Sequence record: NC_070909
Source of the DNA: Escherichia phage Cartapus
Reading direction: 5' to 3' (one strand)
Length of the DNA: 33,368 nucleotides
The translations under genes and the position numbers were made by a program. Of the stretch, positions 162-33,240 are shown piece by piece. Every line of letters begins with the position of its first letter. Position 1 is the stretch's first letter. The notes beneath the pieces were generated by a model, which saw nothing but the letters and a program-made list of their open reading frames with translations, ran no database searches and was not told the DNA's origin.

Positions 162-860
162 ATGGTTATGTTAGTGGATGACTGTCCACGATGTGGATCA
201 CAAAAAATAGCGTTTGATGTTAATGGGCTGAATTGCACTAGGGTTTACAATGCATTGGGCGGGGGTAAAACATACGAGTACGAGGTCTATTGTGTTTGCC
301 GAGAGTGTCATAAAACGACAATGTTTCTTTGCAGACCTTTAACGAAAAATAAAACTTTAGATGGCTATAATTGGGAAAGTGGAATATTCGGCTTAAAGGA
401 AGTTGCAGAGGTTGTTAGGCCTATATCACCGGCAGACTTAGCAGTAGAGGAGCCACCAGAGTTCTTACCTGAGCATATCAATAGTGCATATGAGGAAGGG
501 GCGAAATGTTTGGCTATAGGTTGTTATAATGCAGCAGCAACCATGTTTAGGCTTTGCCTTGATTATGCCACAAAAGGACTTCTTCCTGATGGGGAGCAAG
601 GGCCTGCGCAAAAAATAAGGAGAAGCCTAGGGTTAAGAATGGAGTGGTTATTTGATAATCATCTACTGCCTGAAGCTTTAAGGGAACTAGCTGAATGCGT
701 TAAAGATGACGGAAATGATGGAGCGCATGAAGGTATTTTGGATAAAGCTGCTGCTGAGGATCTTGAAGATTTTACCTATCTTTTTTTAGAACGGCTTTAC
801 ACTGAACCTCAACGCCTTATCGAAGCCAAGACAAGGCGTGAACAAAGAAGAAACAAATAA
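162..860 (+). CDS. accessory protein with N-terminal zinc-ribbon (CPRC...CRECH) and C-terminal DUF4145-like region; function unknown
   Basis: ATG at 162 preceded by GGGAGGAG 8 nt upstream. 232-aa ORF convergent with Q, lying in the cos-Q moron slot. The Cys pairs and the C-terminal GAHEG...LERLY-type region recall DUF4145 (an Abi/restriction-associated domain), from memory only. Confidence 0.6.
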   Translation: MVMLVDDCPRCGSQKIAFDVNGLNCTRVYNALGGGKTYEYEVYCVCRECHKTTMFLCRPLTKNKTLDGYNWESGIFGLKEVAEVVRPISPADLAVEEPPEFLPEHINSAYEEGAKCLAIGCYNAAATMFRLCLDYATKGLLPDGEQGPAQKIRRSLGLRMEWLFDNHLLPEALRELAECVKDDGNDGAHEGILDKAAAEDLEDFTYLFLERLYTEPQRLIEAKTRREQRRNK

Positions 861-1903: not shown

Positions 1904-3669
1904 CAAAAAATCTCCACAATATTGCTGGTATTGGCGGATTCGCCCTGCAGCGGTTCGTTAAACAGTGCGTGCATCGTTGCCCAGGCCAGATCGGCGTGGC
2001 TGGCTTCTTCGCTGCGGCTGGCTTCATAGGTCGGGCGGTTGCCACTGGCGGTGGTGGCGCGACGGATTGCCATAAAGGACTGCGCTATGTCGGTGTGTCC
2101 GGCGTCAAACTCCAGACGGCGGTGGCTGATAATGTCGTAGGCCTTGAGTACCAGGGCGTTTTTAACGTTGGGGTTGTAGACAAACTCCCGGACGGCAGGA
2201 AAAAACGCTTTCACGTTCTCGTAAACCCCGTGACCAACGCCGGTTGAGTCGATACCGATATAGGTCACGTTGTACTGTTCGGTCAGTTTTTTGATGGCGT
2301 CAGCCTGGGCGCGGAAGTCCATTCCGCGCCACTGGTGACGCTCAAGAATGCGGAACTTACCGCCCGGCACGGCTGGCGGCGCCACCACCACGCATCCGGC
2401 GCTGTCGCCGTTCTGCGTACCTTTCGCCGGGTCATATCCGATCCACACTTCGCGCCAGCCAAACGGGCGCAGGGCCAGTGCATGAAAGTCGGTCCAGACT
2501 TCCCAACTGTCCACCATGCACGCCTGCAGCTCGCTGAGCGGGAACACGGACGCGAGATCGTCCACGAACTCGCACATCAGCAGGTTCTGGTATTCGTCCG
2601 GGCTGTACTCCATGCGCAACTGGTCAAGGTCGAACAGGTTACAGCCGCCGCGCACCGCATCTTCCACGGTGACTATCTGGCGGTACTGCCCGTCTGCGCA
2701 CAGCAGGCCGGGGGCCAGATTGCTGTGGGACAGGTCGATGTCCACCTTATCGGCTTTGTTGCGCCCTCGGTTGAACAGCGCACCGGACCAGAACGGATAA
2801 GCACTGTGTGTCAGGCTGGATGGCGTGGAAAAATAGGTTTGTCGCCATTTTTTGTGAATAGCCATACCGGAAGCCACTTTGCGCAGCTCCTGGAATTTCG
2901 GTATCCAGAAATATTCATCCAGATACAGGTTGCCGTGGTAACTCTGGGCCGTGCGGGCATTGGTGCCGAGGAAGTAAAGCGTGGCCCCGTTAGGAAGCAC
3001 CATCGGATCGCCTTTCAGTTCCACATCCACTTCTTTGGCGAAGTCGATGATGTACTGCTTAAAGACGTGGGCCTGTGCCTTACTGGCGGAAAGGAAAATC
3101 TGGTTACGTCCGGTCAGCAGGGCGTCAATCAGGGCTTCACGGGCAAAGTAAAAGGTCGCGCCGATCTGGCGAGACTTCAGCAGGTTGCGGATGCGATTGG
3201 TTTTTCCGGCTTCCCACCAGTGGCGCTGGTAGTTGAACATGGAGGAATGGAAGATTTCTTCCAGCTTCTCAATCTGTTCATCGGTGAAAACATTCTTTTC
3301 CGGCTGACGGCGCGGCCCTTTGTTGCGGTTGGCGACGTTAGGGTTTAAGTCGGCTTCGTTGCCGCCATTGTTAAACTTGCCGATCCGCGCGTGGCGCTCC
3401 GACTGGCGCGCCAGCAGGTCAATTTCTTTGAAATCTTTCCCTTCTTTGTGCTCCTTCATAATGAGCTGGCAGTAGCGGGCGGCGGTGGTGAGCTGCATCT
3501 GATCCAGCGGCCCATAGTCACCCCACTTGTCGCGTTTTTTCCAGCTGTGAACGGTTGCAACTTTCTCGCCCAGCATTTCAGCAATGCGGGCTACGCGGTA
3601 TCCCTGAAAGTACAGCAGCATGGCCTGCCGACGGGGATCGAGATCTGCGGGTGTCAGTGTGGTGTTCAT
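1903..3669 (-). CDS. P: terminase large (ATPase) subunit (P2 gpP-like)
   Basis: 588-aa ORF, ATG at 3669-3667, immediately upstream of and overlapping Q. Size and position as P2 P. Confidence 0.9.
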   Translation of the reverse strand: MNTTLTPADLDPRRQAMLLYFQGYRVARIAEMLGEKVATVHSWKKRDKWGDYGPLDQMQLTTAARYCQLIMKEHKEGKDFKEIDLLARQSERHARIGKFNNGGNEADLNPNVANRNKGPRRQPEKNVFTDEQIEKLEEIFHSSMFNYQRHWWEAGKTNRIRNLLKSRQIGATFYFAREALIDALLTGRNQIFLSASKAQAHVFKQYIIDFAKEVDVELKGDPMVLPNGATLYFLGTNARTAQSYHGNLYLDEYFWIPKFQELRKVASGMAIHKKWRQTYFSTPSSLTHSAYPFWSGALFNRGRNKADKVDIDLSHSNLAPGLLCADGQYRQIVTVEDAVRGGCNLFDLDQLRMEYSPDEYQNLLMCEFVDDLASVFPLSELQACMVDSWEVWTDFHALALRPFGWREVWIGYDPAKGTQNGDSAGCVVVAPPAVPGGKFRILERHQWRGMDFRAQADAIKKLTEQYNVTYIGIDSTGVGHGVYENVKAFFPAVREFVYNPNVKNALVLKAYDIISHRRLEFDAGHTDIAQSFMAIRRATTASGNRPTYEASRSEEASHADLAWATMHALFNEPLQGESANTSNIVEIF

Positions 3670-3715
3670 GGCACAAACCTACAGCCTTGAATGAAGGCTT
3701 TCCCCGCCTGCGGTT

Positions 3716-3733
3716 TGTGTGGTTGTCGGTACA
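3716..3733. promoter_or_regulatory. TGT-N12-ACA dyad (Ogr-type late-promoter activator site) in the divergent P/O promoter region
   Basis: tgtGTGGTTGTCGGTaca in the P-O intergenic region, roughly 80 nt upstream of the O start. P2 late promoters carry a TGT-N12-ACA element near -55. Confidence 0.4.
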
Positions 3734-3811
3734 AATACCGCGCATTGTTTCACTGCCCCCATCACCGCAACCATAAGGCTCCAGTAAGTTTTTTCTAACG
3801 GAGCACGGCTC

Positions 3812-7356: not shown

Positions 7357-7852
7357 ACGCTGCCTTGTCGGGGCCGTGCTGGCTATTGCTGCCACGCTGC
7401 CGGGGTTTCAGCAGCTTCACACCTCCGTGGAGGGGCTGAAACTGATTGCCGATTACGAAGGTTGTCGTCTGCAGCCGTATCAGTGCAGCGCGGGTGTCTG
7501 GACCGACGGCATTGGAAATACGTCGGGCGTCATTCCCGGCAAAACAATCACGGAACGACAGGCAGCAGAAGGGCTTATTTCCAACGTGCTGCGTGTGGAG
7601 CGGGCGCTGGAAAGGTGTGTGAAGCAACAGCCGCCGCAGAAGGTATATGACGCTACGGTGTCGTTTGCCTTCAACGTGGGAACGGGCAATGCCTGCAGTT
7701 CTACGCTGGTGAAATTGCTCAATCAGCGGCGCTGGGCAGAAGCGTGCCGACAGTTGCCGCGCTGGGTTTATGTGAAAGGTGTGTTTAATCAGGGGCTGGA
7801 TAACCGCCGTGCGCGGGAGATGGCCTGGTGCCTTAAAGGAGCTGGATTATGA
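7337..7852 (+). CDS. endolysin, lysozyme-like (GH24-type) with N-terminal signal-anchor-release (SAR)-like segment
   Basis: 171 aa. Weakly hydrophobic Gly/Ala-rich N-terminus (CLVGAVLAIAATLPG) followed by a lysozyme-like EG...WTDGIGNT catalytic region. Follows the holin. Confidence 0.8.
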   Translation: MNPSIVKRCLVGAVLAIAATLPGFQQLHTSVEGLKLIADYEGCRLQPYQCSAGVWTDGIGNTSGVIPGKTITERQAAEGLISNVLRVERALERCVKQQPPQKVYDATVSFAFNVGTGNACSSTLVKLLNQRRWAEACRQLPRWVYVKGVFNQGLDNRRAREMAWCLKGAGL

Positions 7853-8277
7853 CGCGTGCGCTGGCGGTAGTGGCGGCGCTGGCACTCGTTGCGCTGGGCT
7901 GGCAGTCGTGGCGGCTTAACAGCGCCAGCCACACCATCGAAACGCAGCGCGCGGCGCTGAAAAGTAAAGCGCACGAACTGACGAAGAAAAATAGCCAGCT
8001 GATCAGTCTGTCCATTCTGGCTGAAACCAATAACCGGGAGCAGGCGCGGCTCTATGCCGAAGCAGAACAGACCAGCGCGCTGCTGAGACAACGACAACAC
8101 CGGATCGAGGAACTGAAACGTGAGAACGAGGATTTACGCCGCTGGGCTGATACTCCTTTGCCTGCTGACATTATCCGGCTGCGGGAACGTCCGGCACTCA
8201 CCGGAGGTGCAGCTTACCGTCAGTGGTTGTCCGCGAGTGACGCCGTGTCGGCTGGAGCAGGCAGCGCCGCGCACTAA
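7849..8277 (+). CDS. lysB: i-spanin (Rz/LysB-like)
   Basis: 142 aa with an N-terminal TM segment (VVAALALVALGW) and a coiled-coil-like periplasmic part. ATG with AGGAG RBS, overlapping the endolysin stop. Confidence 0.7.
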   Translation: MTRALAVVAALALVALGWQSWRLNSASHTIETQRAALKSKAHELTKKNSQLISLSILAETNNREQARLYAEAEQTSALLRQRQHRIEELKRENEDLRRWADTPLPADIIRLRERPALTGGAAYRQWLSASDAVSAGAGSAAH

Positions 8278-8410
8278 CGGTGATCTGAACGCATTGCTGG
8301 ATGAAACGGAGGCCGCCTGGGCGGTCTGTGCAGACAAAGTGGACATGATTATTGCGTGTCAGGAGCGAAACAGTGAACAAACCACAATCCCTGCGCCACG
8401 CCCTCAATAA
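8120..8410 (+). CDS. lysC: o-spanin lipoprotein (Rz1/LysC-like), starting inside lysB in another frame
   Basis: 96-aa ORF with a signal peptide and lipobox (LTLSGC). Begins within lysB in a different frame, as P2 lysB/lysC do. Confidence 0.6.
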   Translation: MRTRIYAAGLILLCLLTLSGCGNVRHSPEVQLTVSGCPRVTPCRLEQAAPRTNGDLNALLDETEAAWAVCADKVDMIIACQERNSEQTTIPAPRPQ

Positions 8411-8804
8411 AGCAGTGCCTTATGTCCGCAATAACCCGGATAAGCTGCATCTGTTTGTGGATAACGGTTCGCTGGTTGCCACGGGGGCCAGCTCCATGTC
8501 ATGGGAGTACCGTTATACCCTCAACGTGGTGATTGAGGATTTCAGCGGCGACCAGAATCTGCTGATGGCCCCGGTTTTGCTGTGGCTGCGTGATAACCAG
8601 CCCGATGCCATCAATAATCCGGCGTTACGGGAAAAGTTATTCACCTTTGAGGTGGATATTCTGCGCAACGATGTCTGTGATATCAGCCTCAACCTGCAAC
8701 TGACGGAACGTGTGCTGGTCAGCACTGACGGAAGTGTGTCGAGCGTTGAAGCAGTAGCGGAACCCGATGAACCTGAAGAAATGTGGACGGTGAAACGTGG
8801 CTGA
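8373..8804 (+). CDS. R: tail completion protein (P2 gpR-like)
   Basis: Track ORF starts at a TTG at 8352. The GTG at 8373 with an AGGAG RBS gives VNKPQSLRHALNKA..., which resembles the P2 R N-terminus as I recall it. Confidence 0.8.
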   Translation: MNKPQSLRHALNKAVPYVRNNPDKLHLFVDNGSLVATGASSMSWEYRYTLNVVIEDFSGDQNLLMAPVLLWLRDNQPDAINNPALREKLFTFEVDILRNDVCDISLNLQLTERVLVSTDGSVSSVEAVAEPDEPEEMWTVKRG

Positions 8805-9249
8805 ACTGCAGAAGGTGGACGACTGGCTGAGTGCTTTGCTGGCGAATCTGGAACCAGCCGCAAGAAGCCGAATGATGCGCCAGCTGGCGCAGGAACTGCG
8901 CCGGACACAGCAGCAGAATATCAGGATGCAGCGCAATCCAGATGGCAGCAGTTATGAGCCGCGCAGGGTAACAGCACGCAGCAAGAAGGGGCGCATCAAA
9001 CGTCAGATGTTTGCAAAGCTGCGCACCACAAAATACCTGAGAACTGCCGCCAGCGCGGATTCTGCCAGCGTACAGTTTGAAGGTAAGGTACAGCGTATTG
9101 CCCGTGTTCATCACTACGGTCTGCGCGATCGCGTCAGTCCAAAGGGGGGAGTCATTAAGTATCCATCCCGAAAATTGCTGGGTTTAAATGAACATACTGA
9201 AAATGAAGTAAGAGATTTACTTTTAAAGTATTTATTGATGAAAAATTAG
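8797..9249 (+). CDS. S: tail completion protein (P2 gpS-like)
   Basis: 150-aa ORF beginning with GTG; an in-frame stop lies 2 codons upstream, so no earlier start is possible. Synteny with P2 S. Confidence 0.8.
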   Translation: MAELQKVDDWLSALLANLEPAARSRMMRQLAQELRRTQQQNIRMQRNPDGSSYEPRRVTARSKKGRIKRQMFAKLRTTKYLRTAASADSASVQFEGKVQRIARVHHYGLRDRVSPKGGVIKYPSRKLLGLNEHTENEVRDLLLKYLLMKN

Positions 9250-9254
9250 AATGT

Positions 9255-9785
9255 TTACGCTCTTAATAAACTTAAATAACTTTTTATGCTTTGGCAAAAA
9301 GGGAAAAGGTCTATTTTAATTTTCCAGTTTTTTTTGTTTTGAACCCCAGAAGCAATAATAGAACCGTCCCAATATTTTATTCCATTTTTGCCGGTCTTTT
9401 TTGTTAACTCAAAACTTAATGCGTGAATAATTTTATTGCAGCATTCGCGTATAGAATCTTTAACATGACCATCTATAACAAAAAGTATATTTTCATGTTC
9501 TTCAAATGCTTCTTTCTCAGGTGAGTAATCTGGGTTCCACTCATGTTCACTAGTGTCTTGGAGAATTCGTAGTTTTGTACAAAGGCTAATAAGATTGTTG
9601 CTAATGGTATATTCCAACCATCCGTTGTACGATAACTCCTCCATTTCAAATTCAGTTACTATAGAACCATCATATACTTTCTGTGTGGAATATATACGCT
9701 GTAAATAAAATTCAGATGAACAGCATAATTGCTCAATTATTCTTGCGTGTTCTTCTATAGCGTAATAATCAATTGGATGGCTCAT
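9255..9785 (-). CDS. hypothetical accessory protein in the S-V (P2 orf30) moron slot
   Basis: AT-rich ORF opposite to the flanking late genes. Track ORF runs to 9824, but the ATG at 9785 has an AAAGG RBS (176 aa, MSHPIDYY...). No domain recognised. Confidence 0.5.
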   Translation of the reverse strand: MSHPIDYYAIEEHARIIEQLCCSSEFYLQRIYSTQKVYDGSIVTEFEMEELSYNGWLEYTISNNLISLCTKLRILQDTSEHEWNPDYSPEKEAFEEHENILFVIDGHVKDSIRECCNKIIHALSFELTKKTGKNGIKYWDGSIIASGVQNKKNWKIKIDLFPFCQSIKSYLSLLRA

Positions 9786-9816
9786 TCTTTTACCTTTCTT
9801 TGATTGGAATTGTATT

Positions 9817-9834
9817 TGTGTCATTTACCACACA
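9817..9834. promoter_or_regulatory. TGT-N12-ACA dyad (late promoter element upstream of V)
   Basis: tgtGTCATTTACCACaca about 50-60 nt upstream of the V start. Same element type as at 3716 and 15568. Confidence 0.35.
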
Positions 9835-9880
9835 AGGACGTATTGATGCCATAGATTCAAGGTCCGTGCAACCTAACCCT

Positions 9881-10459
9881 ATGAACGCACAACTAACCGA
9901 AATCATGCGCCTTATCACCAACCTGATCCGCACTGGTGTAGTCACCGAAGTGGACCGGGAAAACTGGCTTTGCCGGGTGAAAACGGGCGAGCTTGAAACC
10001 AACTGGATCAGCTGGCTGACGCTGCGTGCCGGGAATGCCCGCACATGGTGGCGACCATCGGAAGGTGAGCAGGTGGTGCTGCTGAGTCTGGGCGGCAATC
10101 TGGAAACTGCCTTTGCGCTGCCCGCTGTCTATTCGAATCAGTTCGCACCACCGTCGACGTCGGCAGACGCCTGCGTGACAGAACATCCTGACGGCGGCTG
10201 GTTTGAATACGAACCCACTACCGGGCGCTGGTATGTCAGGGGCATCAAATCAATGGTCATTGAGGCCGCTGACAACATCACCATGAAAACCAGTGAGTTT
10301 GTACTGGAGGCTGACCGCACGCGCATTAACAGCGAAGTGGTGATCAATGGTGGCGTTACCCAGGGCGGCGGAGCGATGAGTTCTAACGGGATCGTGGTTG
10401 ATGCGCATCAGCATACTGACGTCCTGAAAGGCGGCGACACAACCGGAGGCCCGGTATGA
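9881..10459 (+). CDS. V: baseplate spike/assembly protein (P2 gpV-like)
   Basis: Track ORF 9773-10459. I place the start at the ATG at 9881 (MNAQLTEIMRL...), giving 192 aa. Synteny V-W-J-I. Confidence 0.85.
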   Translation: MNAQLTEIMRLITNLIRTGVVTEVDRENWLCRVKTGELETNWISWLTLRAGNARTWWRPSEGEQVVLLSLGGNLETAFALPAVYSNQFAPPSTSADACVTEHPDGGWFEYEPTTGRWYVRGIKSMVIEAADNITMKTSEFVLEADRTRINSEVVINGGVTQGGGAMSSNGIVVDAHQHTDVLKGGDTTGGPV

Positions 10460-15567: not shown

Positions 15568-15585
15568 TGTGTGAATAACGGTACA
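15568..15585. promoter_or_regulatory. TGT-N12-ACA dyad (late promoter element upstream of FI)
   Basis: tgtGTGAATAACGGTaca about 75 nt upstream of the FI start. Shares TGTGTG...GGTACA with the site at 3716. Confidence 0.4.
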
Positions 15586-23582: not shown

Positions 23583-24788
23583 TCATGGTTTAATATGGGC
23601 ATATACTTGAATTTCATCCATACAAGTTTCGAGTTTATAAAAGTCAGTTAAATTATAGATGTTCAAAATTTCATCATCTATGCTTCCTGTTAGCTCACGA
23701 TTTTTTCTTCTTCGTAGCCTTCTGCTGAGATTCTCTCGATCGGATTGTGCAACTGATTCAGGCACGTACTCAACTGTTTTTAGGACCTGCCAAGATACAG
23801 GCAATGTGAATTTGAAAATTTTCGCTAGATTTGGACAAAATTCATTATTGGCCATCTCCTCGTAACGCACTTTTGGAGGAAGTACCACATTTATTCCTCT
23901 GCTACCTAAGGCATTAGCAGGTAATTTTGTTGAGCGGTAGGCTATACCAACAACATTCTCATTGCTGTTCCGACTGATCCATTGCATCAAAAGATTGGGG
24001 ATAATATATTCTTGTACAAAGGAAGCATTGTCATATTTTTTTAAATAATTGCATGCAATTATCAAAGGCCAAAGTGCTAAATATGAGAGTTTGGTATTGA
24101 AATCATATTTGTTCTTTCTTTTTGACTCTAATATAGATCTCTGTTTATATAAAAAATCAGGTCCTATATTTAGTACCTTTGAGTCATTATTTTTATCGAT
24201 CTTGTAGGCAGATATATATAGCTTATCAAAATCTGGCTTATCCATTTCTCTCCAGCATATATAAAGAGATGTTCCTAAATATAAACAGGGTAGACCAGCA
24301 ACTGAAAATCTCTGTGCTCTAACAAAGTGACGCTGACTGAACGGAATATGAAACATATCTCTTCTTGATGTAAGTGGCGTATCAGATTTTCTAACGCGGA
24401 ATAATGGTTTATCTTCATTACATAAGTCAGAAAGAGGTATGCATATATTTTCAATATGACGAGATATAGTTCGTGGCTCTAGCATACTTTCAAATGAGTC
24501 ATATGCCGACTTAATATCCCCTGATAAAAAACACTCTAAACACGAGACGATTTCTTTCTGCATGATATCTACAGCTCTAAGTCTATTGCGCAAGCGTAAA
24601 CTTAACCTGTTATCATTTTCCTGGATGTAATCTACTAAACAACCCCGGAATTTACTGCATTTTAGAGCGAAGTCATCTATCAAAGTAAGGTTTTTTTCAA
24701 TCTCAATTGGTGGTCGAATACTTGATTTTTTTCTAATAGTGTCAAAAAGATTATTAAGTTCTTCATCGAGTTCTTGTTGAATATGCAT
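23583..24788 (-). CDS. large accessory protein with a RES-domain-like core (possible NAD+-targeting toxin-type fold); function unknown
   Basis: 401-aa AT-rich ORF, 9 nt downstream of the int stop. The central segment ...FRVRKSD...QRFSVAGLPCLYLGTSLYICWRE... parallels the Arg / Tyr-x-x-x-Ser / Glu core of RES toxins (MbcT/ParT type) as recalled. No adjacent antitoxin-like ORF. Confidence 0.5.
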   Translation of the reverse strand: MHIQQELDEELNNLFDTIRKKSSIRPPIEIEKNLTLIDDFALKCSKFRGCLVDYIQENDNRLSLRLRNRLRAVDIMQKEIVSCLECFLSGDIKSAYDSFESMLEPRTISRHIENICIPLSDLCNEDKPLFRVRKSDTPLTSRRDMFHIPFSQRHFVRAQRFSVAGLPCLYLGTSLYICWREMDKPDFDKLYISAYKIDKNNDSKVLNIGPDFLYKQRSILESKRKNKYDFNTKLSYLALWPLIIACNYLKKYDNASFVQEYIIPNLLMQWISRNSNENVVGIAYRSTKLPANALGSRGINVVLPPKVRYEEMANNEFCPNLAKIFKFTLPVSWQVLKTVEYVPESVAQSDRENLSRRLRRRKNRELTGSIDDEILNIYNLTDFYKLETCMDEIQVYAHIKP

Positions 24789-24797
24789 TTTTATTTA

Positions 24798-25814
24798 TCA
24801 CTTTAAGTTAAATAAGGGGTTTTTAGTAACAGCATCTTCAAGATGTTCTGGTGCGAAATGGGCATAGACCATTGTCATTTTTATATCTGAGTGCCCTAAA
24901 ATATCTCTCAATACAAGAATATTTCCGCCATTCATCATAAAGTGACTAGCGAATGTATGGCGCAATACATGCGTGCACTGGCCCTCTGGCAAGTCAATAC
25001 CTGCTCTTTTTACTGCACGCTCAAAAGATTTTCTGCATGGCGTGAATAACTTCCCTCTGTTTTTGGGGAGTTCGTGATACAGATCTTGAGATATTGGTAC
25101 TGTTCTGTTTTTCTTGCCCTTTGTCTTTGTATAAGTAATTCGGTATTTCGATATTTGGTGGCCCTGAAGGTTTTCGGCTTCACTCCACCGTGCGCCGGTA
25201 GCTAAGCATATTTTTGCAATCATTAGTAGGCTCGGGCTTTGAGATTCAGCACATGCAGCCAACAGGCGCTTGATTTCGTCCACGGAAAGAAAAGCCAGCT
25301 CACCTTCGGTAATTTTGAAGGTCGGAAGTCCTGCCAGCGGGTTTGGTGCTGACCAGTGTCCTAGTTTTTTTAATGTACCGAACACCGATGATAGATTGCG
25401 CTGTTCAAGGTTTACCGTGCGGGGCTTAACGGGCGACATAAGCGTGCCATCTTCATTTCGTACTTCACCTTTTAACCGTGCTTCGCGGTATTTCGTAAAG
25501 TCACCGGCTGTTAGTTCTGAGGCGATGGGATCGCCTAGACCATTACAGATAATTCTAAGTTTCGCCATGAGGCGCTTGGGGTCTGCGAGTGTTTGACCAT
25601 ACAGGGAATACCACTGCTCAATTAATTCTGATAGGTGTCGCCGATCTTCCTTTTCCCCCAGCCATGGTTTTTTGTTCACTTCTTCCATTGTGAAGCTTTC
25701 AAAAGCAATGGCTTCGCCTTTCGTAGCAAATTGCTTACGCACGCGCTTGCCATTGCGTCCATTGGGATAGCACTCGCACAACCATTTACCGTTTGGCTGT
25801 TTTCTGACAGTCAT
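24798..25814 (-). CDS. int: tyrosine integrase (phage integrase family)
   Basis: 338 aa. C-terminal ...HVLRHTFASHF...LGHSDIKMTMVYAHF carries the R-H-R-Y catalytic signature. Adjacent to attP and the repressor gene. Confidence 0.9.
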   Translation of the reverse strand: MTVRKQPNGKWLCECYPNGRNGKRVRKQFATKGEAIAFESFTMEEVNKKPWLGEKEDRRHLSELIEQWYSLYGQTLADPKRLMAKLRIICNGLGDPIASELTAGDFTKYREARLKGEVRNEDGTLMSPVKPRTVNLEQRNLSSVFGTLKKLGHWSAPNPLAGLPTFKITEGELAFLSVDEIKRLLAACAESQSPSLLMIAKICLATGARWSEAENLQGHQISKYRITYTKTKGKKNRTVPISQDLYHELPKNRGKLFTPCRKSFERAVKRAGIDLPEGQCTHVLRHTFASHFMMNGGNILVLRDILGHSDIKMTMVYAHFAPEHLEDAVTKNPLFNLK

Positions 25815-32628: not shown

Positions 32629-33240
32629 ATGGATTTAGTCTTTAAAATTCTGGCTTCGTTGGGTGGGGTGTCTTTTGTTGCATCTGGCATATTTGTTTGG
32701 ATCGGGAAAGTTTATTTAGAAAGATATAAGTCGCGGCTAAACAAAGATATTGCTGAATTTCAATCACAACTGAGTGCAACTAATGAAAGAATAAAGGCTA
32801 AGTTAGACAATTCTGTTTATGTAACGAAAGCGTATTTTGATAAGGAGTTATCAGCATATAGTCTCATTTGGAATTCGATGTTTGAAACCAGAGAAAGCGT
32901 GCTTAAGCTGAGGCCTGCGCTGGATCATTTTGACCCCAACGAACCATTTGAAGAGAGAAAATTTAGAAGGTTGAAAGTTTTTTTCGATGCATTTAATACT
33001 TTTGTTACAAGTGTTGAGTCTAACAAACCGTTCATCTCACCAGAGGTTTATATAATCTTGGACCGTTTCCGGAAGGAATGCCTTTCAGAGTCAATATCGT
33101 TTCAGCATGGCGATCCAGAATTTGACTGGCAAAATTATTGGAAAGAGGCAGAGTTGAACCGTACAACCATCACCAAGCTTTTTGATGAGACGTGTGATGC
33201 AATTCGAGACAGGATGCACACATTAACTGTGGTTACGTAG
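32629..33240 (+). CDS. hypothetical membrane-anchored protein (accessory, cos-proximal moron)
   Basis: 203-aa AT-rich ORF with one N-terminal hydrophobic helix (LVFKILASLGGVSFVASGIFVWIG), then a charged, probably helical region. Followed by a terminator. Confidence 0.5.
   Translation: MDLVFKILASLGGVSFVASGIFVWIGKVYLERYKSRLNKDIAEFQSQLSATNERIKAKLDNSVYVTKAYFDKELSAYSLIWNSMFETRESVLKLRPALDHFDPNEPFEERKFRRLKVFFDAFNTFVTSVESNKPFISPEVYIILDRFRKECLSESISFQHGDPEFDWQNYWKEAELNRTTITKLFDETCDAIRDRMHTLTVVT

What the first reader, a model, noticed from the sequence alone, without database searches (positions are those of the whole stretch)
9255..9785. AT-rich opposite-strand moron in the S-V slot, overlapping the V late-promoter element
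A 176-aa ORF (MSHPIDYY...) lies between tail-completion gene S and baseplate gene V on the opposite strand. This is the position of the non-essential orf30 moron in P2, but the sequence is not one I recognise. Its composition is markedly AT-rich against GC-rich neighbours. Its 5-prime region overlaps the TGT-N12-ACA element of the V late promoter, so its expression and late transcription are physically entangled.
Basis: partly seen in the sequence, partly recalled or inferred. Interest (0 to 1): 0.5.

Follow-up and report, generated by a model that had tools for sequence, protein, structure and literature searches.

The report
Uncharacterised accessory gene in P2-like phage
A real, strongly conserved 176-residue gene of unknown function sits backwards between two tail genes of a P2-like phage, in a slot where sister phages carry known anti-phage defence genes. 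This makes it a good but untested candidate for a new one-gene defence protein.

Summary
The ORF is real. It runs 9255..9785 on the minus strand and encodes 176 aa starting MSHPIDYY. It has 32% GC against 55-60% flanks and a conserved Shine-Dalgarno. dN/dS is 0.09 against its Salmonella allele.

It lies between tail genes S and V, where P2 carries the unrelated, also reversed, orf30.

Of the 80 phage contigs with the most similar V protein, 52 have an empty slot and 5 carry this gene. Twenty carry 15 other AT-rich single-gene cargos. At least 7 of these match defence or candidate-defence models: AbiU, ApeA-like, OLD/Gabija-like, GmrSD-like, PDC-S15/S59/S66.

The TGT-N12-ACA box (9817-9834) is genuine. 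Its centre is 55.5 nt from the V ATG, exactly as in P2, and all 36 distinct V-upstream sequences keep it. It lies 31 bp upstream of the conserved start codon, so it overlaps the gene's control region, not its coding sequence.

The protein has no Pfam, NCBIfam, PADLOC or PDB match. It belongs to a family of about 431 clusters in many phyla, always stand-alone and often a single-gene integron cassette. H3, R73, D77, R113, N117, K118 and H121 are conserved (motif RExCNKIIHA).

Best guess: a lysogen-expressed single-protein defence, possibly a HEPN-like nuclease. Function is untested.

The parts
8797..9249 (+). Tail-completion gene S (150 aa), the last gene of the O operon
   Evidence: ORF. PF05069 Phage_tail_S lies at the same position in related loci. 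RefSeq calls it 'phage virion morphogenesis protein' in E. coli LF82.
9141..9249 (+). Cargo-specific, AT-rich 3' tail of S (last ~36 codons); left part of the exchanged block
   Evidence: Similarity to relatives with an empty slot stops after ...RDRVS. This tail has 34% GC, against 58% in empty-slot phages. Each cargo type has its own S tail.
9255..9785 (-). The accessory gene: 176 aa, MSHPIDYY...SLLRA. Conserved residues are H3, R73, D77, R113, N117, K118, H121, G147 and W154 (motif RECCNKIIHA at 113-122).
   Evidence: (WP_000019234.1, hypothetical protein). AlphaFold2 gives pLDDT 90 and pTM 0.85.
9793..9797 (-). Shine-Dalgarno (AAAGG read on the minus strand), about 7 nt before ATG 9785
   Evidence: Sequence. 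A purine-rich AGG/GAGGA is kept at the same place in the Salmonella, Enterobacter and Pantoea alleles.
9809..9814 (-). Candidate -10 hexamer TACAAT for the gene (unverified). A possible -35, TTGTGT, would lie inside the activator box.
   Evidence: Read from the sequence. It is not conserved across alleles and the promoter scan did not report it. This is inference only.
9822..9824 (-). Upstream in-frame ATG that would give the 189-aa reading; probably not used
   Evidence: Listed and used in the old LF82 annotation CBY17605.1. Its frame is not conserved in other alleles. RefSeq and all homologues use the 176-aa start.
9817..9834 (.). TGT-N12-ACA activator (Ogr-type) binding site of the V late promoter, centred 55.5 nt before the V ATG
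   Evidence: P2 annotation geometry; kept at -64 in all 36 distinct upstream variants.
9786..9880 (.). 95-bp divergent control region shared by the accessory gene (leftward) and V (rightward). It is part of the exchanged block.
9881..10459 (+). Baseplate gene V (192 aa). Its mRNA is probably leaderless, as annotated in P2.
   Evidence: (PF04717).

Best explanation
The feature is a genuine, selectively maintained single-gene accessory cassette in the S-V slot of a P2-like temperate phage.

The exchanged module runs from inside the 3' end of S (about 9141) to the V start codon (9881). It holds three things: a cargo-specific S tail, the reversed 176-aa gene, and a private copy of the V late promoter with its activator box. 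Such modules appear to be swapped between P2-like phages by recombination in the conserved S and V genes (inferred).

The protein is soluble and belongs to a widespread, unannotated family that always occurs as a stand-alone mobile gene.

Most likely (inferred, not shown), it is made in the lysogen from a promoter in the 95-bp divergent region. It would act alone as an anti-phage, abortive-infection-type defence protein.

Its conserved H/R/D/R/N/K/H set on a helical-bundle core suggests a metal-independent, HEPN-like nuclease that is held inactive until infection.

The activator box lies 31 bp upstream of its start codon, and no terminator separates it from S. Binding of the late activator and read-through from the O operon could therefore dampen it during the phage's own late phase (speculative).
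For: Real gene:
- ORF, conserved Shine-Dalgarno and conserved start.
- dN/dS 0.09.
- 431 family clusters at E<=1e-3.
- Confident fold, pLDDT 90.

Insertion:
- Absent from 95-96% identical Klebsiella and E. coli phages, where the S-V gap is 68 bp.
- The slot is empty in 52 of 80 nearest relatives.
- The block is 99.9-100% identical in 22 of 5426 complete E. coli genomes, including LF82.

Long association with the slot:
- Alleles at 51-74% identity in Salmonella, Enterobacter and Pantoea prophages are all reversed between S and V.

The slot is a defence hotspot:
- There are 15 other cargo types, all at 30-37% GC. All are a single reversed gene (one is split into two ORFs), except two that are co-oriented with the late genes.
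- They include AbiU (1.7e-24), ApeA-like (1e-13), an OLD/Gabija/AriA-like ATPase-Toprim (1e-25) and a NsnA/PD-T4-2-like GmrSD protein (3e-23).
- They also include PDC-S59 (2e-197) and PDC-S15 (8e-32), plus Pfam AIPR, TIR_2, Schlafen AlbA_2 and FRG.

Stand-alone function:
- No conserved neighbour in 80 distant loci.
- It is a single-gene integron cassette between attC-like repeats in Aliivibrio and Vibrio.
- Flanking direct repeats occur in 11 of 80 loci.
- Neighbours elsewhere include integrases, AbiEii, AbiH, TIR and Gabija/Septu-like ATPases.

Enzyme-like:
- R73, R113, N117, K118 and H121 are 94-99% conserved. H3 is kept even in members with N-terminal extensions.

Promoter geometry.
Against: - There is no functional or expression data of any kind.
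- No PADLOC, Pfam or NCBIfam model matches any of 120 family members.
- HEPN is not demonstrated. The motif spacing is R-x7-H, not R-x4-6-H, and the residue before N117 is Cys, not Arg.
- Foldseek finds nothing in PDB or BFVD.
- hhalign against the ApeA-like and AbiU cargos is negative.
- Guilt by location is only probabilistic. About half of the other cargo types have no PADLOC hit either.
- No promoter or terminator for the gene could be identified.
- The enrichment of defence genes around distant homologues was not quantified against a background.
Confidence: 0.5

Rival explanations
1. It is an accessory gene that benefits the lysogen or itself in some way other than phage defence. Examples are a stress or growth-control enzyme, a selfish toxin-like element, or an immunity protein against a bacterial toxin.
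For: - The family is spread through chromosomes of many phyla and in integron cassettes, which carry many kinds of adaptive genes.
- There is no match to any defence model.
- About half of the other slot cargos are also unassigned by PADLOC.
Against: - Where the cargos in the same slot are recognisable, they are defence proteins.
- A set of conserved Arg/His/Asn/Lys/Asp residues fits an enzyme better than an immunity or binding protein.
- No partner toxin or antitoxin is conserved next to it.
Confidence: 0.25
2. It is a counter-defence protein that the phage uses to neutralise a host immune system during infection or induction.
For: - Phage variable regions also carry anti-defence genes.
- The protein is small and soluble, with no known domain.
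Against: - The family occurs mostly outside phages. It is found in chromosomal integron arrays and in cyanobacterial, Chloroflexota and archaeal genomes.
- It is oriented against both late operons, like the lysogen-expressed cargos of this slot.
- The 2026 survey of P2-like prophages found anti-defence genes in only 28 P2 elements (PMC13586616).
Confidence: 0.1
3. It is a tail or baseplate assembly accessory protein tied to S and V.
For: - It sits between two tail genes.
- The C-terminal tail of S co-varies with the cargo.
Against: - It is absent from 52 of 80 nearest relatives, which have near-identical V proteins.
- In other phages the slot holds unrelated enzymes instead.
- Homologues occur in non-phage contexts.
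- It is on the opposite strand to the late operons.
- It has no similarity to structural proteins.
Confidence: 0.03
4. It is a spurious or decaying reading frame in foreign AT-rich DNA.
For: Only that it is annotated as 'hypothetical protein' everywhere and that no function is known.
Against: - dN/dS is 0.09, and synonymous sites are saturated between alleles that keep 51-74% protein identity.
- There are hundreds of homologue clusters with near-invariant residues.
- The structure prediction is confident.
- A 176-codon open frame in 32% GC DNA is itself unlikely by chance.
Confidence: 0.02

Closest known systems
Phage P2 orf30 (NP_046770.1), the non-essential gene between S and V
   Same: - Same slot and same reversed orientation.
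- It is AT-rich foreign DNA.
- Its start codon lies a few bp from the pV activator site (15 bp in P2, 31 bp here).
   Different: - No sequence similarity (BLASTP E 0.22); 261 aa against 176 aa.
- P2 has an annotated terminator between S and orf30. Here the two stop codons are 5 bp apart and no terminator is detectable.
P2 lysogen-expressed exclusion genes old, tin and Z/fun, and the P2/P4 defence hotspots (Rousset et al. 2022, PMC9122126; NAR 2026, PMC13586616)
   Same: - Foreign, AT-rich cargo at a fixed site between conserved phage genes.
- Rapid swapping of unrelated cargos between near-identical phages.
- Many cargos are defence genes.
   Different: - Those papers centre on the gpA-gpQ locus, and the Z/fun locus is the other classical one. 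The S-V slot is mentioned at most as 'within the tail genes'.
- This cargo has no known defence domain and is untested.
Single-protein HEPN abortive-infection systems (AbiU, ApeA, AbiD/F, AbiV, AbiJ)
   Same: - A stand-alone protein with no partner gene.
- AbiU and ApeA-like proteins occupy this very slot in sister phages.
- A conserved Arg...Asn-x3-His on one short helix.
   Different: - It is much smaller (176 aa) and has no separate sensor domain.
- Motif spacing is R-x7-H, with Cys where HEPN has Arg before Asn.
- A three-strand beta insert follows the motif helix.
- No HEPN Pfam model hits it, and hhalign to the ApeA-like and AbiU cargos is negative.
Single-gene anti-phage cassettes of sedentary chromosomal integrons (Darracq et al., bioRxiv 10.1101/2024.07.02.601686), for example 'Esos' (HEPN-like only) and 'Belenos' (no domain)
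   Same: - Relatives of this gene are single-gene cassettes between attC-like repeats in Vibrionaceae.
- That paper shows that many such small cassettes of unknown function are defences, and that some recur in Escherichia or Salmonella prophages.
   Different: - Identity with any of the 16 named systems could not be tested, because no sequences are in the held text.
- The only system that paper places in Escherichia prophages, Cernunnos, has Pfam PF21784, which this protein lacks.
'Moron' as defined for lambdoid phages (an autonomous transcription unit inserted between genes that are adjacent in relatives; my own knowledge of the Hendrix-group definition)
   Same: - It is inserted between genes that are adjacent in relatives.
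- Its base composition is distinct.
   Different: - Its own promoter and terminator were not found.
- The exchanged unit also replaces part of S and the whole V promoter, so it behaves more like an allelic module than a clean insertion.

Membership tests
P2 orf30 family | Sequence homology to P2 Orf30 | tested here: not met
   BLASTP E 0.22 over 27 residues.
P2 orf30 family | Reversed gene between S and V, next to the pV activator site | tested here: met
   P2 annotation compared with window coordinates.
Moron (inserted autonomous accessory unit) | Lies between genes that are adjacent in close relatives | tested here: met
   The S-V gap is 68 bp in phages 500465-1 and 4LV2017. The slot is empty in 52 of 80 IMG/VR relatives.
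Moron (inserted autonomous accessory unit) | Base composition distinct from the flanks | tested here: met
   27-37% GC against 55-62%; the gene itself is 32% GC.
Moron (inserted autonomous accessory unit) | Own promoter and terminator | tested here: inconclusive
   The scan reports no minus-strand promoter or terminator. There is only an unconserved TACAAT candidate. The S/ORF junction has no stable hairpin, with z about 0.
P2-type late promoter (Ogr/Delta-activated) | TGT-N12-ACA dyad centred about 55 nt upstream of the transcription start | tested here: met
   The centre at 9825.5 is 55.5 nt from the V ATG. P2 has the same distance from its annotated site to its annotated start, which is the V ATG.
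P2-type late promoter (Ogr/Delta-activated) | Conservation of the dyad where the surrounding sequence varies | tested here: met
   All 36 distinct upstream variants keep it at -63 to -66. The four alleles of this gene also keep it.
P2-type late promoter (Ogr/Delta-activated) | Activator-dependent late transcription | not testable with these tools
   This needs transcript mapping or reporter assays.
HEPN superfamily nuclease | R-x4-6-H motif at the start of the last core helix | tested here: not met
   The motif is R113-ECCNKII-H121, with 7 residues between R and H. N-x3-H is present, but Cys (82%) replaces the usual Arg before Asn. R113 does sit at the start of a helix.
HEPN superfamily nuclease | Four-helix up-down bundle core | tested here: inconclusive
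HEPN superfamily nuclease | Match to a curated HEPN family profile | tested here: not met
   No Pfam hit at E<=0.1 to any HEPN family for any of 120 members. hhalign to the ApeA-like and AbiU cargos gives probability below 1%.
HEPN superfamily nuclease | Metal-independent RNA cleavage | not testable with these tools
   This needs biochemical assays.
Known anti-phage defence systems (PADLOC-DB v2) | Match to a defence-protein model | tested here: not met
   No hit for this protein. Among 120 family members there were only scattered single hits at E>=7e-4.
Known anti-phage defence systems (PADLOC-DB v2) | Location in a defence hotspot | tested here: met
   At least 7 of the 15 other cargo types in the same slot hit defence or candidate-defence models, one of them only weakly. 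Pfam adds AIPR, TIR, Schlafen and FRG domains.
Known anti-phage defence systems (PADLOC-DB v2) | Protection against phage infection | not testable with these tools
   This needs phage challenge assays.
Integron gene cassette (for the Vibrionaceae relatives, not for the window copy) | Single ORF bounded by attC-type repeats within a co-oriented array | tested here: met
   In L035 the gene at 7920-8456 lies between ~129-nt repeats at 7780-7908 and 8474-8602. L042 is similar. Eleven of 80 loci have flanking direct repeats. One cluster member is annotated DUF3265.

The most novel reading that the evidence does not exclude
The gene is the phage-borne founder of a new family of minimal single-protein abortive-infection nucleases of about 180 aa. 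The family would be a divergent HEPN-like fold with an R-x3-N-K-x2-H catalytic helix and a beta insert. It has spread as a one-gene cassette between P2-like prophage slots and chromosomal integrons.

Its expression would be wired to the phage cycle. It would be on in the lysogen from a promoter overlapping the Ogr box. It would be shut off during the phage's own late phase, by activator occupancy of the shared 95-bp region and by antisense read-through from the unterminated O operon. The phage would thereby avoid killing itself.
Probability: 0.12. Interest if true: 0.7.

Novelty: new member of a known kind. Interest (0 to 1): 0.5.

Why it matters
If the gene protects lysogens, it adds a very small, domain-less, one-protein defence with a simple set of testable catalytic residues. 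It occurs in at least 22 complete E. coli genomes, including the Crohn's-associated strain LF82. It is also found in Salmonella, Enterobacter, Pantoea, Vibrio integrons and many environmental phyla.

The survey also shows that the S-V junction of P2-like phages is a defence hotspot of its own. This slot has had little attention. Each cargo travels with a private copy of the V late promoter and a private C-terminal tail of S.

That is a clean natural system for two questions. One is how cargo exchange is reconciled with essential late-gene control. The other is how a prophage keeps a potentially suicidal gene quiet during its own lytic growth.

Tried and rejected
Searches that found nothing:
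- Pfam, NCBIfam and PADLOC on the protein, and Pfam and PADLOC on 120 family members, gave nothing meaningful. PHROGs gave only phrog_18838, 'unknown function'.
- tblastn against 50,697 GenBank phage records gave no match.
- A profile search of PDB sequences gave one chance hit, E 0.3.
- Foldseek against PDB and BFVD gave nothing at E<=0.001. The AFDB libraries were unavailable.
- A profile search of the 5.8-billion-protein set at E<=1 gave 79 hits, all 'hypothetical' and none with a Pfam domain.
- Rfam on the whole window gave no RNA family.

Ideas tested and dropped:
- Homology to P2 orf30 was rejected.
- A conserved operon partner, such as a toxin-antitoxin or two-gene system, was rejected. 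No neighbour family recurs beyond integrase-like proteins in 5 of 80 loci.
- hhalign of the family profile against the ApeA-like and AbiU cargos of the same slot was negative.
- The 189-aa start at 9824 was rejected, because the frame is not conserved.
- An N-terminal metal-binding (X-X-His) idea for the conserved H3 was rejected, because the His is kept inside longer N-terminal extensions.
- A terminator between S and the gene was not found on either strand.

Literature:
- A search for WP_000019234 found no paper.
- Identity with the integron systems 'Esos' or 'Belenos' could not be checked.
- The second match at 3658-3675 is not a separate late-promoter box. P2 uses one shared site for pP and pO.

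Full report
**1. What is in the sequence**

The window is a complete P2-like (Peduoviridae) phage genome in virion order. The order is portal and terminase, then O-N-M-L, lysis genes, R-S, V-W-J-I-H, tail sheath and tube, integrase and replication gene.

S ends at 9249. A minus-strand ORF runs from its stop at 9255 to ATG 9785 (176 aa, MSHPIDYY...). An in-frame ATG at 9824 would give 189 aa. V starts at 9881.

GC falls to 27-37% between about 9150 and 9870, against 55-62% on both sides. This is the most AT-rich island of the genome, which averages 51% GC.

**2. The ORF is a real gene, and its start is 9785**

- RefSeq annotates exactly 9255-9785 in E. coli LF82 (WP_000019234.1, hypothetical protein).
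- The block 9141-9870 is 99.9-100% identical in 22 of 5426 complete E. coli genomes.
- The exact protein is on record from at least 1000 contigs of Enterobacteriaceae.
- Alleles at 74%, 60% and 51% identity occur in Salmonella, Enterobacter and Pantoea. All start at the MSHP position, and the Salmonella one uses TTG.
- A purine-rich Shine-Dalgarno is conserved. The stretch up to ATG 9824 suffers frame-breaking indels between alleles.
- Against the Salmonella allele, pS is 0.66, pN is 0.14 and dN/dS is 0.09. Against the others, synonymous sites are saturated while pN stays at 0.27-0.33.

**3. It is an insertion, and the inserted block is bigger than the ORF**

The closest sequenced phages are Klebsiella Kp48xx, KP12 and 4LV2017 and Escherichia 500465-1. 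They are 95-96% identical in the flanks and lack the gene. There, S and V are 68 bp apart.

Similarity to them stops inside S, after ...RDRVS at about 9140, and resumes only about 12 nt before the V ATG. The foreign block therefore holds three parts:
- a recoded, AT-rich version of the last ~36 codons of S;
- the reversed gene;
- essentially the whole V promoter region.

**4. The S-V slot is a variable, defence-rich locus**

I fetched the 80 IMG/VR contigs whose V protein is closest, at 96-100% identity. Their slot contents were as follows:

| Slot content | Contigs |
|---|---|
| Empty | 52 |
| This gene | 5 |
| One of 15 other cargo types | 20 |
| Truncated or rearranged | 3 |

All other cargos have 30-37% GC. 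All are a single reversed gene (one is split into two ORFs), except two that are co-oriented with the late genes.

Recognisable cargos:

| Cargo match | E-value |
|---|---|
| AbiU | 1.7e-24 |
| ApeA-like (one intact, one split) | 1e-13 |
| OLD/Gabija/AriA-like ATPase-Toprim | 1e-25 |
| NsnA/PD-T4-2-like protein with a GmrSD N-domain | 3e-23 |
| PDC-S59 | 2e-197 |
| PDC-S15 | 8e-32 |
| PDC-S66 (weak) | 9e-7 |

Pfam adds AIPR, TIR_2, Schlafen AlbA_2 and FRG domains.

The literature centres on the gpA-gpQ and Z/fun loci. It mentions further hotspots 'within the tail genes' only in passing.

**5. Each cargo brings its own S tail and its own V promoter, but the activator box is invariant**

Each cargo type has a different C-terminal 20-35 residues of S. 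Each also has an unrelated sequence upstream of V. Yet all 36 distinct upstream sequences contain TGT-N12-ACA starting at -63 to -66 from the V ATG.

In P2 the annotated pV activator site (10239-10266) is centred 55.5 nt from the annotated V transcription start at 10308. That base is also the first base of the V coding sequence. In the window the box at 9817-9834 is centred 55.5 nt from the V ATG at 9881.

The genome-wide count of the pattern (8) is what chance gives (8.9). This copy is nevertheless certainly functional. Two other copies sit where P2 has its other activator sites:
- 3716-3733 lies between P and O. It is one shared site, as in P2.
- 15568-15585 lies 94 nt before the sheath gene ATG.

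**6. Relation of the gene to the box**

The conserved start codon is 31 bp from the box. The distance is 23-35 bp in the other alleles and 15 bp for P2 orf30. The coding sequence does not overlap the box.

The whole spacer to V is 95 bp, so the gene's promoter must lie over or beside the box and the V core promoter. A TACAAT at 9809-9814 (minus strand), with TTGTGT inside the box as a possible -35, is a candidate. It is not conserved, and the scan did not report it.

S and the gene end 5 bp apart with no detectable terminator on either strand. P2 has an annotated terminator at this point. Late transcripts from the O operon may therefore run antisense through the gene. These regulatory consequences are inference only.

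**7. The protein**

No Pfam, NCBIfam or PADLOC model matches. PHROGs places it in phrog_18838, 'unknown function'.

Exhaustive HMMER with a 13-sequence profile finds 431 clusters at E<=1e-3 and 131 at E<=1e-10. Nearly all are 170-210 aa and match end to end.

The family occurs in Proteobacteria, Cyanobacteria, Chloroflexota, Bacteroidota, Nitrospirota and a Methanosarcinales MAG. Every named member is 'hypothetical protein'.

Across about 120 full-length members:
- R73, R113, N117, K118, H121, G147 and W154 are 94-99% conserved.
- D77 is 87% conserved and H3 84%.
- The signature is R-E-x-C-N-K-I-I-H-A.
- H3 is retained as K-P-H in members with longer N-termini.

AlphaFold2 gives a confident model, with pLDDT 90 and pTM 0.85. 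It has two long helices, then a short helix that carries the motif. A three-strand meander and a C-terminal helix follow.

The HEPN motif is not met strictly: the spacing is R-x7-H, and Cys replaces the Arg that normally precedes Asn. No HEPN profile matches.

I therefore treat 'HEPN-like metal-independent nuclease' as a hypothesis at roughly 30%.

**8. The gene works alone and is mobile**

In 80 distant loci no neighbouring family recurs, and intergenic gaps are typical of separate genes.

In Aliivibrio and Vibrio the gene is a single-gene cassette between ~129-nt attC-type repeats within co-oriented arrays. Eleven of 80 loci show flanking direct repeats, including Chloroflexia, Stutzerimonas, Pseudoalteromonas and Xanthomonadales loci. 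One Vibrio member carries the attC-derived DUF3265 label.

Other neighbours include integrases, resolvases, IS200, AbiEii, AbiH, TIR, HEPN/Toprim and Gabija/Septu-like ATPases.

A preprint shows that many small integron cassettes of unknown function are anti-phage systems, some of which recur in enterobacterial prophages. I could not test whether this family is one of them.

**9. Conclusion**

Shown:
- It is a real, purifying-selected, stand-alone gene.
- It is part of an exchangeable module (S tail, cargo, private V promoter) in a defence-rich slot.
- The activator box is genuine and lies 31 bp upstream of the gene.

Inferred:
- It is expressed in the lysogen and protects against other phages (about 0.5).
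- It acts through a HEPN-like nuclease activity (about 0.3).
- It is possibly silenced during the phage's own late phase (speculative).

Rivals are another accessory function (0.25), counter-defence (0.1), a tail accessory (0.03) and a spurious ORF (0.02).

The kind of thing is known: prophage hotspot cargo. The family itself is uncharacterised.

Noticed in passing
window 9141-9249, and S genes of loci L090-L169: The last 20-35 residues of tail-completion protein S differ with every cargo type in the S-V slot and are encoded in the AT-rich foreign DNA. The left recombination junction is usually just after ...RRLLG; in this window it is earlier, after ...DRVS. Either S tolerates any C-terminal tail, or the tail region doubles as the cargo's 3' end.
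   Followed up: partly
window 9249-9255: S and the reversed gene end 5 bp apart, with no terminator-like hairpin on either strand. P2 has an annotated rho-independent terminator between S and orf30. O-operon transcripts may read antisense through the cargo.
   Followed up: partly
window 3658-3733: TGT-N12-ACA at 3716-3733 is centred 55.5 nt from the terminase P ATG (3669, minus strand) and about 55 nt from a predicted O start near 3780. This matches P2's single shared pP/pO activator site. It would make the P mRNA leaderless here, unlike P2, which has a 23-nt leader. A second match at 3658-3675 overlaps the P start codon and is probably chance.
   Followed up: partly
window 23583-24788 (minus strand): A 401-aa ORF lies in a second strongly AT-rich island (minimum 29% GC), directly beside the HP1/P2-type integrase (24798-25814). 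It has no PADLOC or PDB sequence match. It may be another hotspot cargo.
   Followed up: partly
window 162-860 and 32629-33240: Two AT-rich ORFs (232 aa and 203 aa) lie in the classical gpA-gpQ hotspot. The first has a weak PADLOC hit to PD-T7-4 (E 1.2e-6) and the second has none.
   Followed up: partly
L158 2591-3397 (also L094, L159): One alternative S-V cargo is a 268-aa predicted multi-pass membrane protein whose 3' end overlaps the end of S by 59 nt.
   Followed up: no
L007 3183-3800: A distant 205-aa family member (26-30% identity) lies on a metagenomic contig. About 1.3 kb downstream is a 435-aa AAA_21 ATPase, a domain common in OLD/Gabija-type defence proteins.
   Followed up: no
L129 1668-3420 versus L130 1666-3420: The ApeA-like cargo is intact (584 aa) in one phage and split into 372-aa and 195-aa ORFs in a near-identical one. 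This is a likely recent inactivation of a slot cargo.
   Followed up: no
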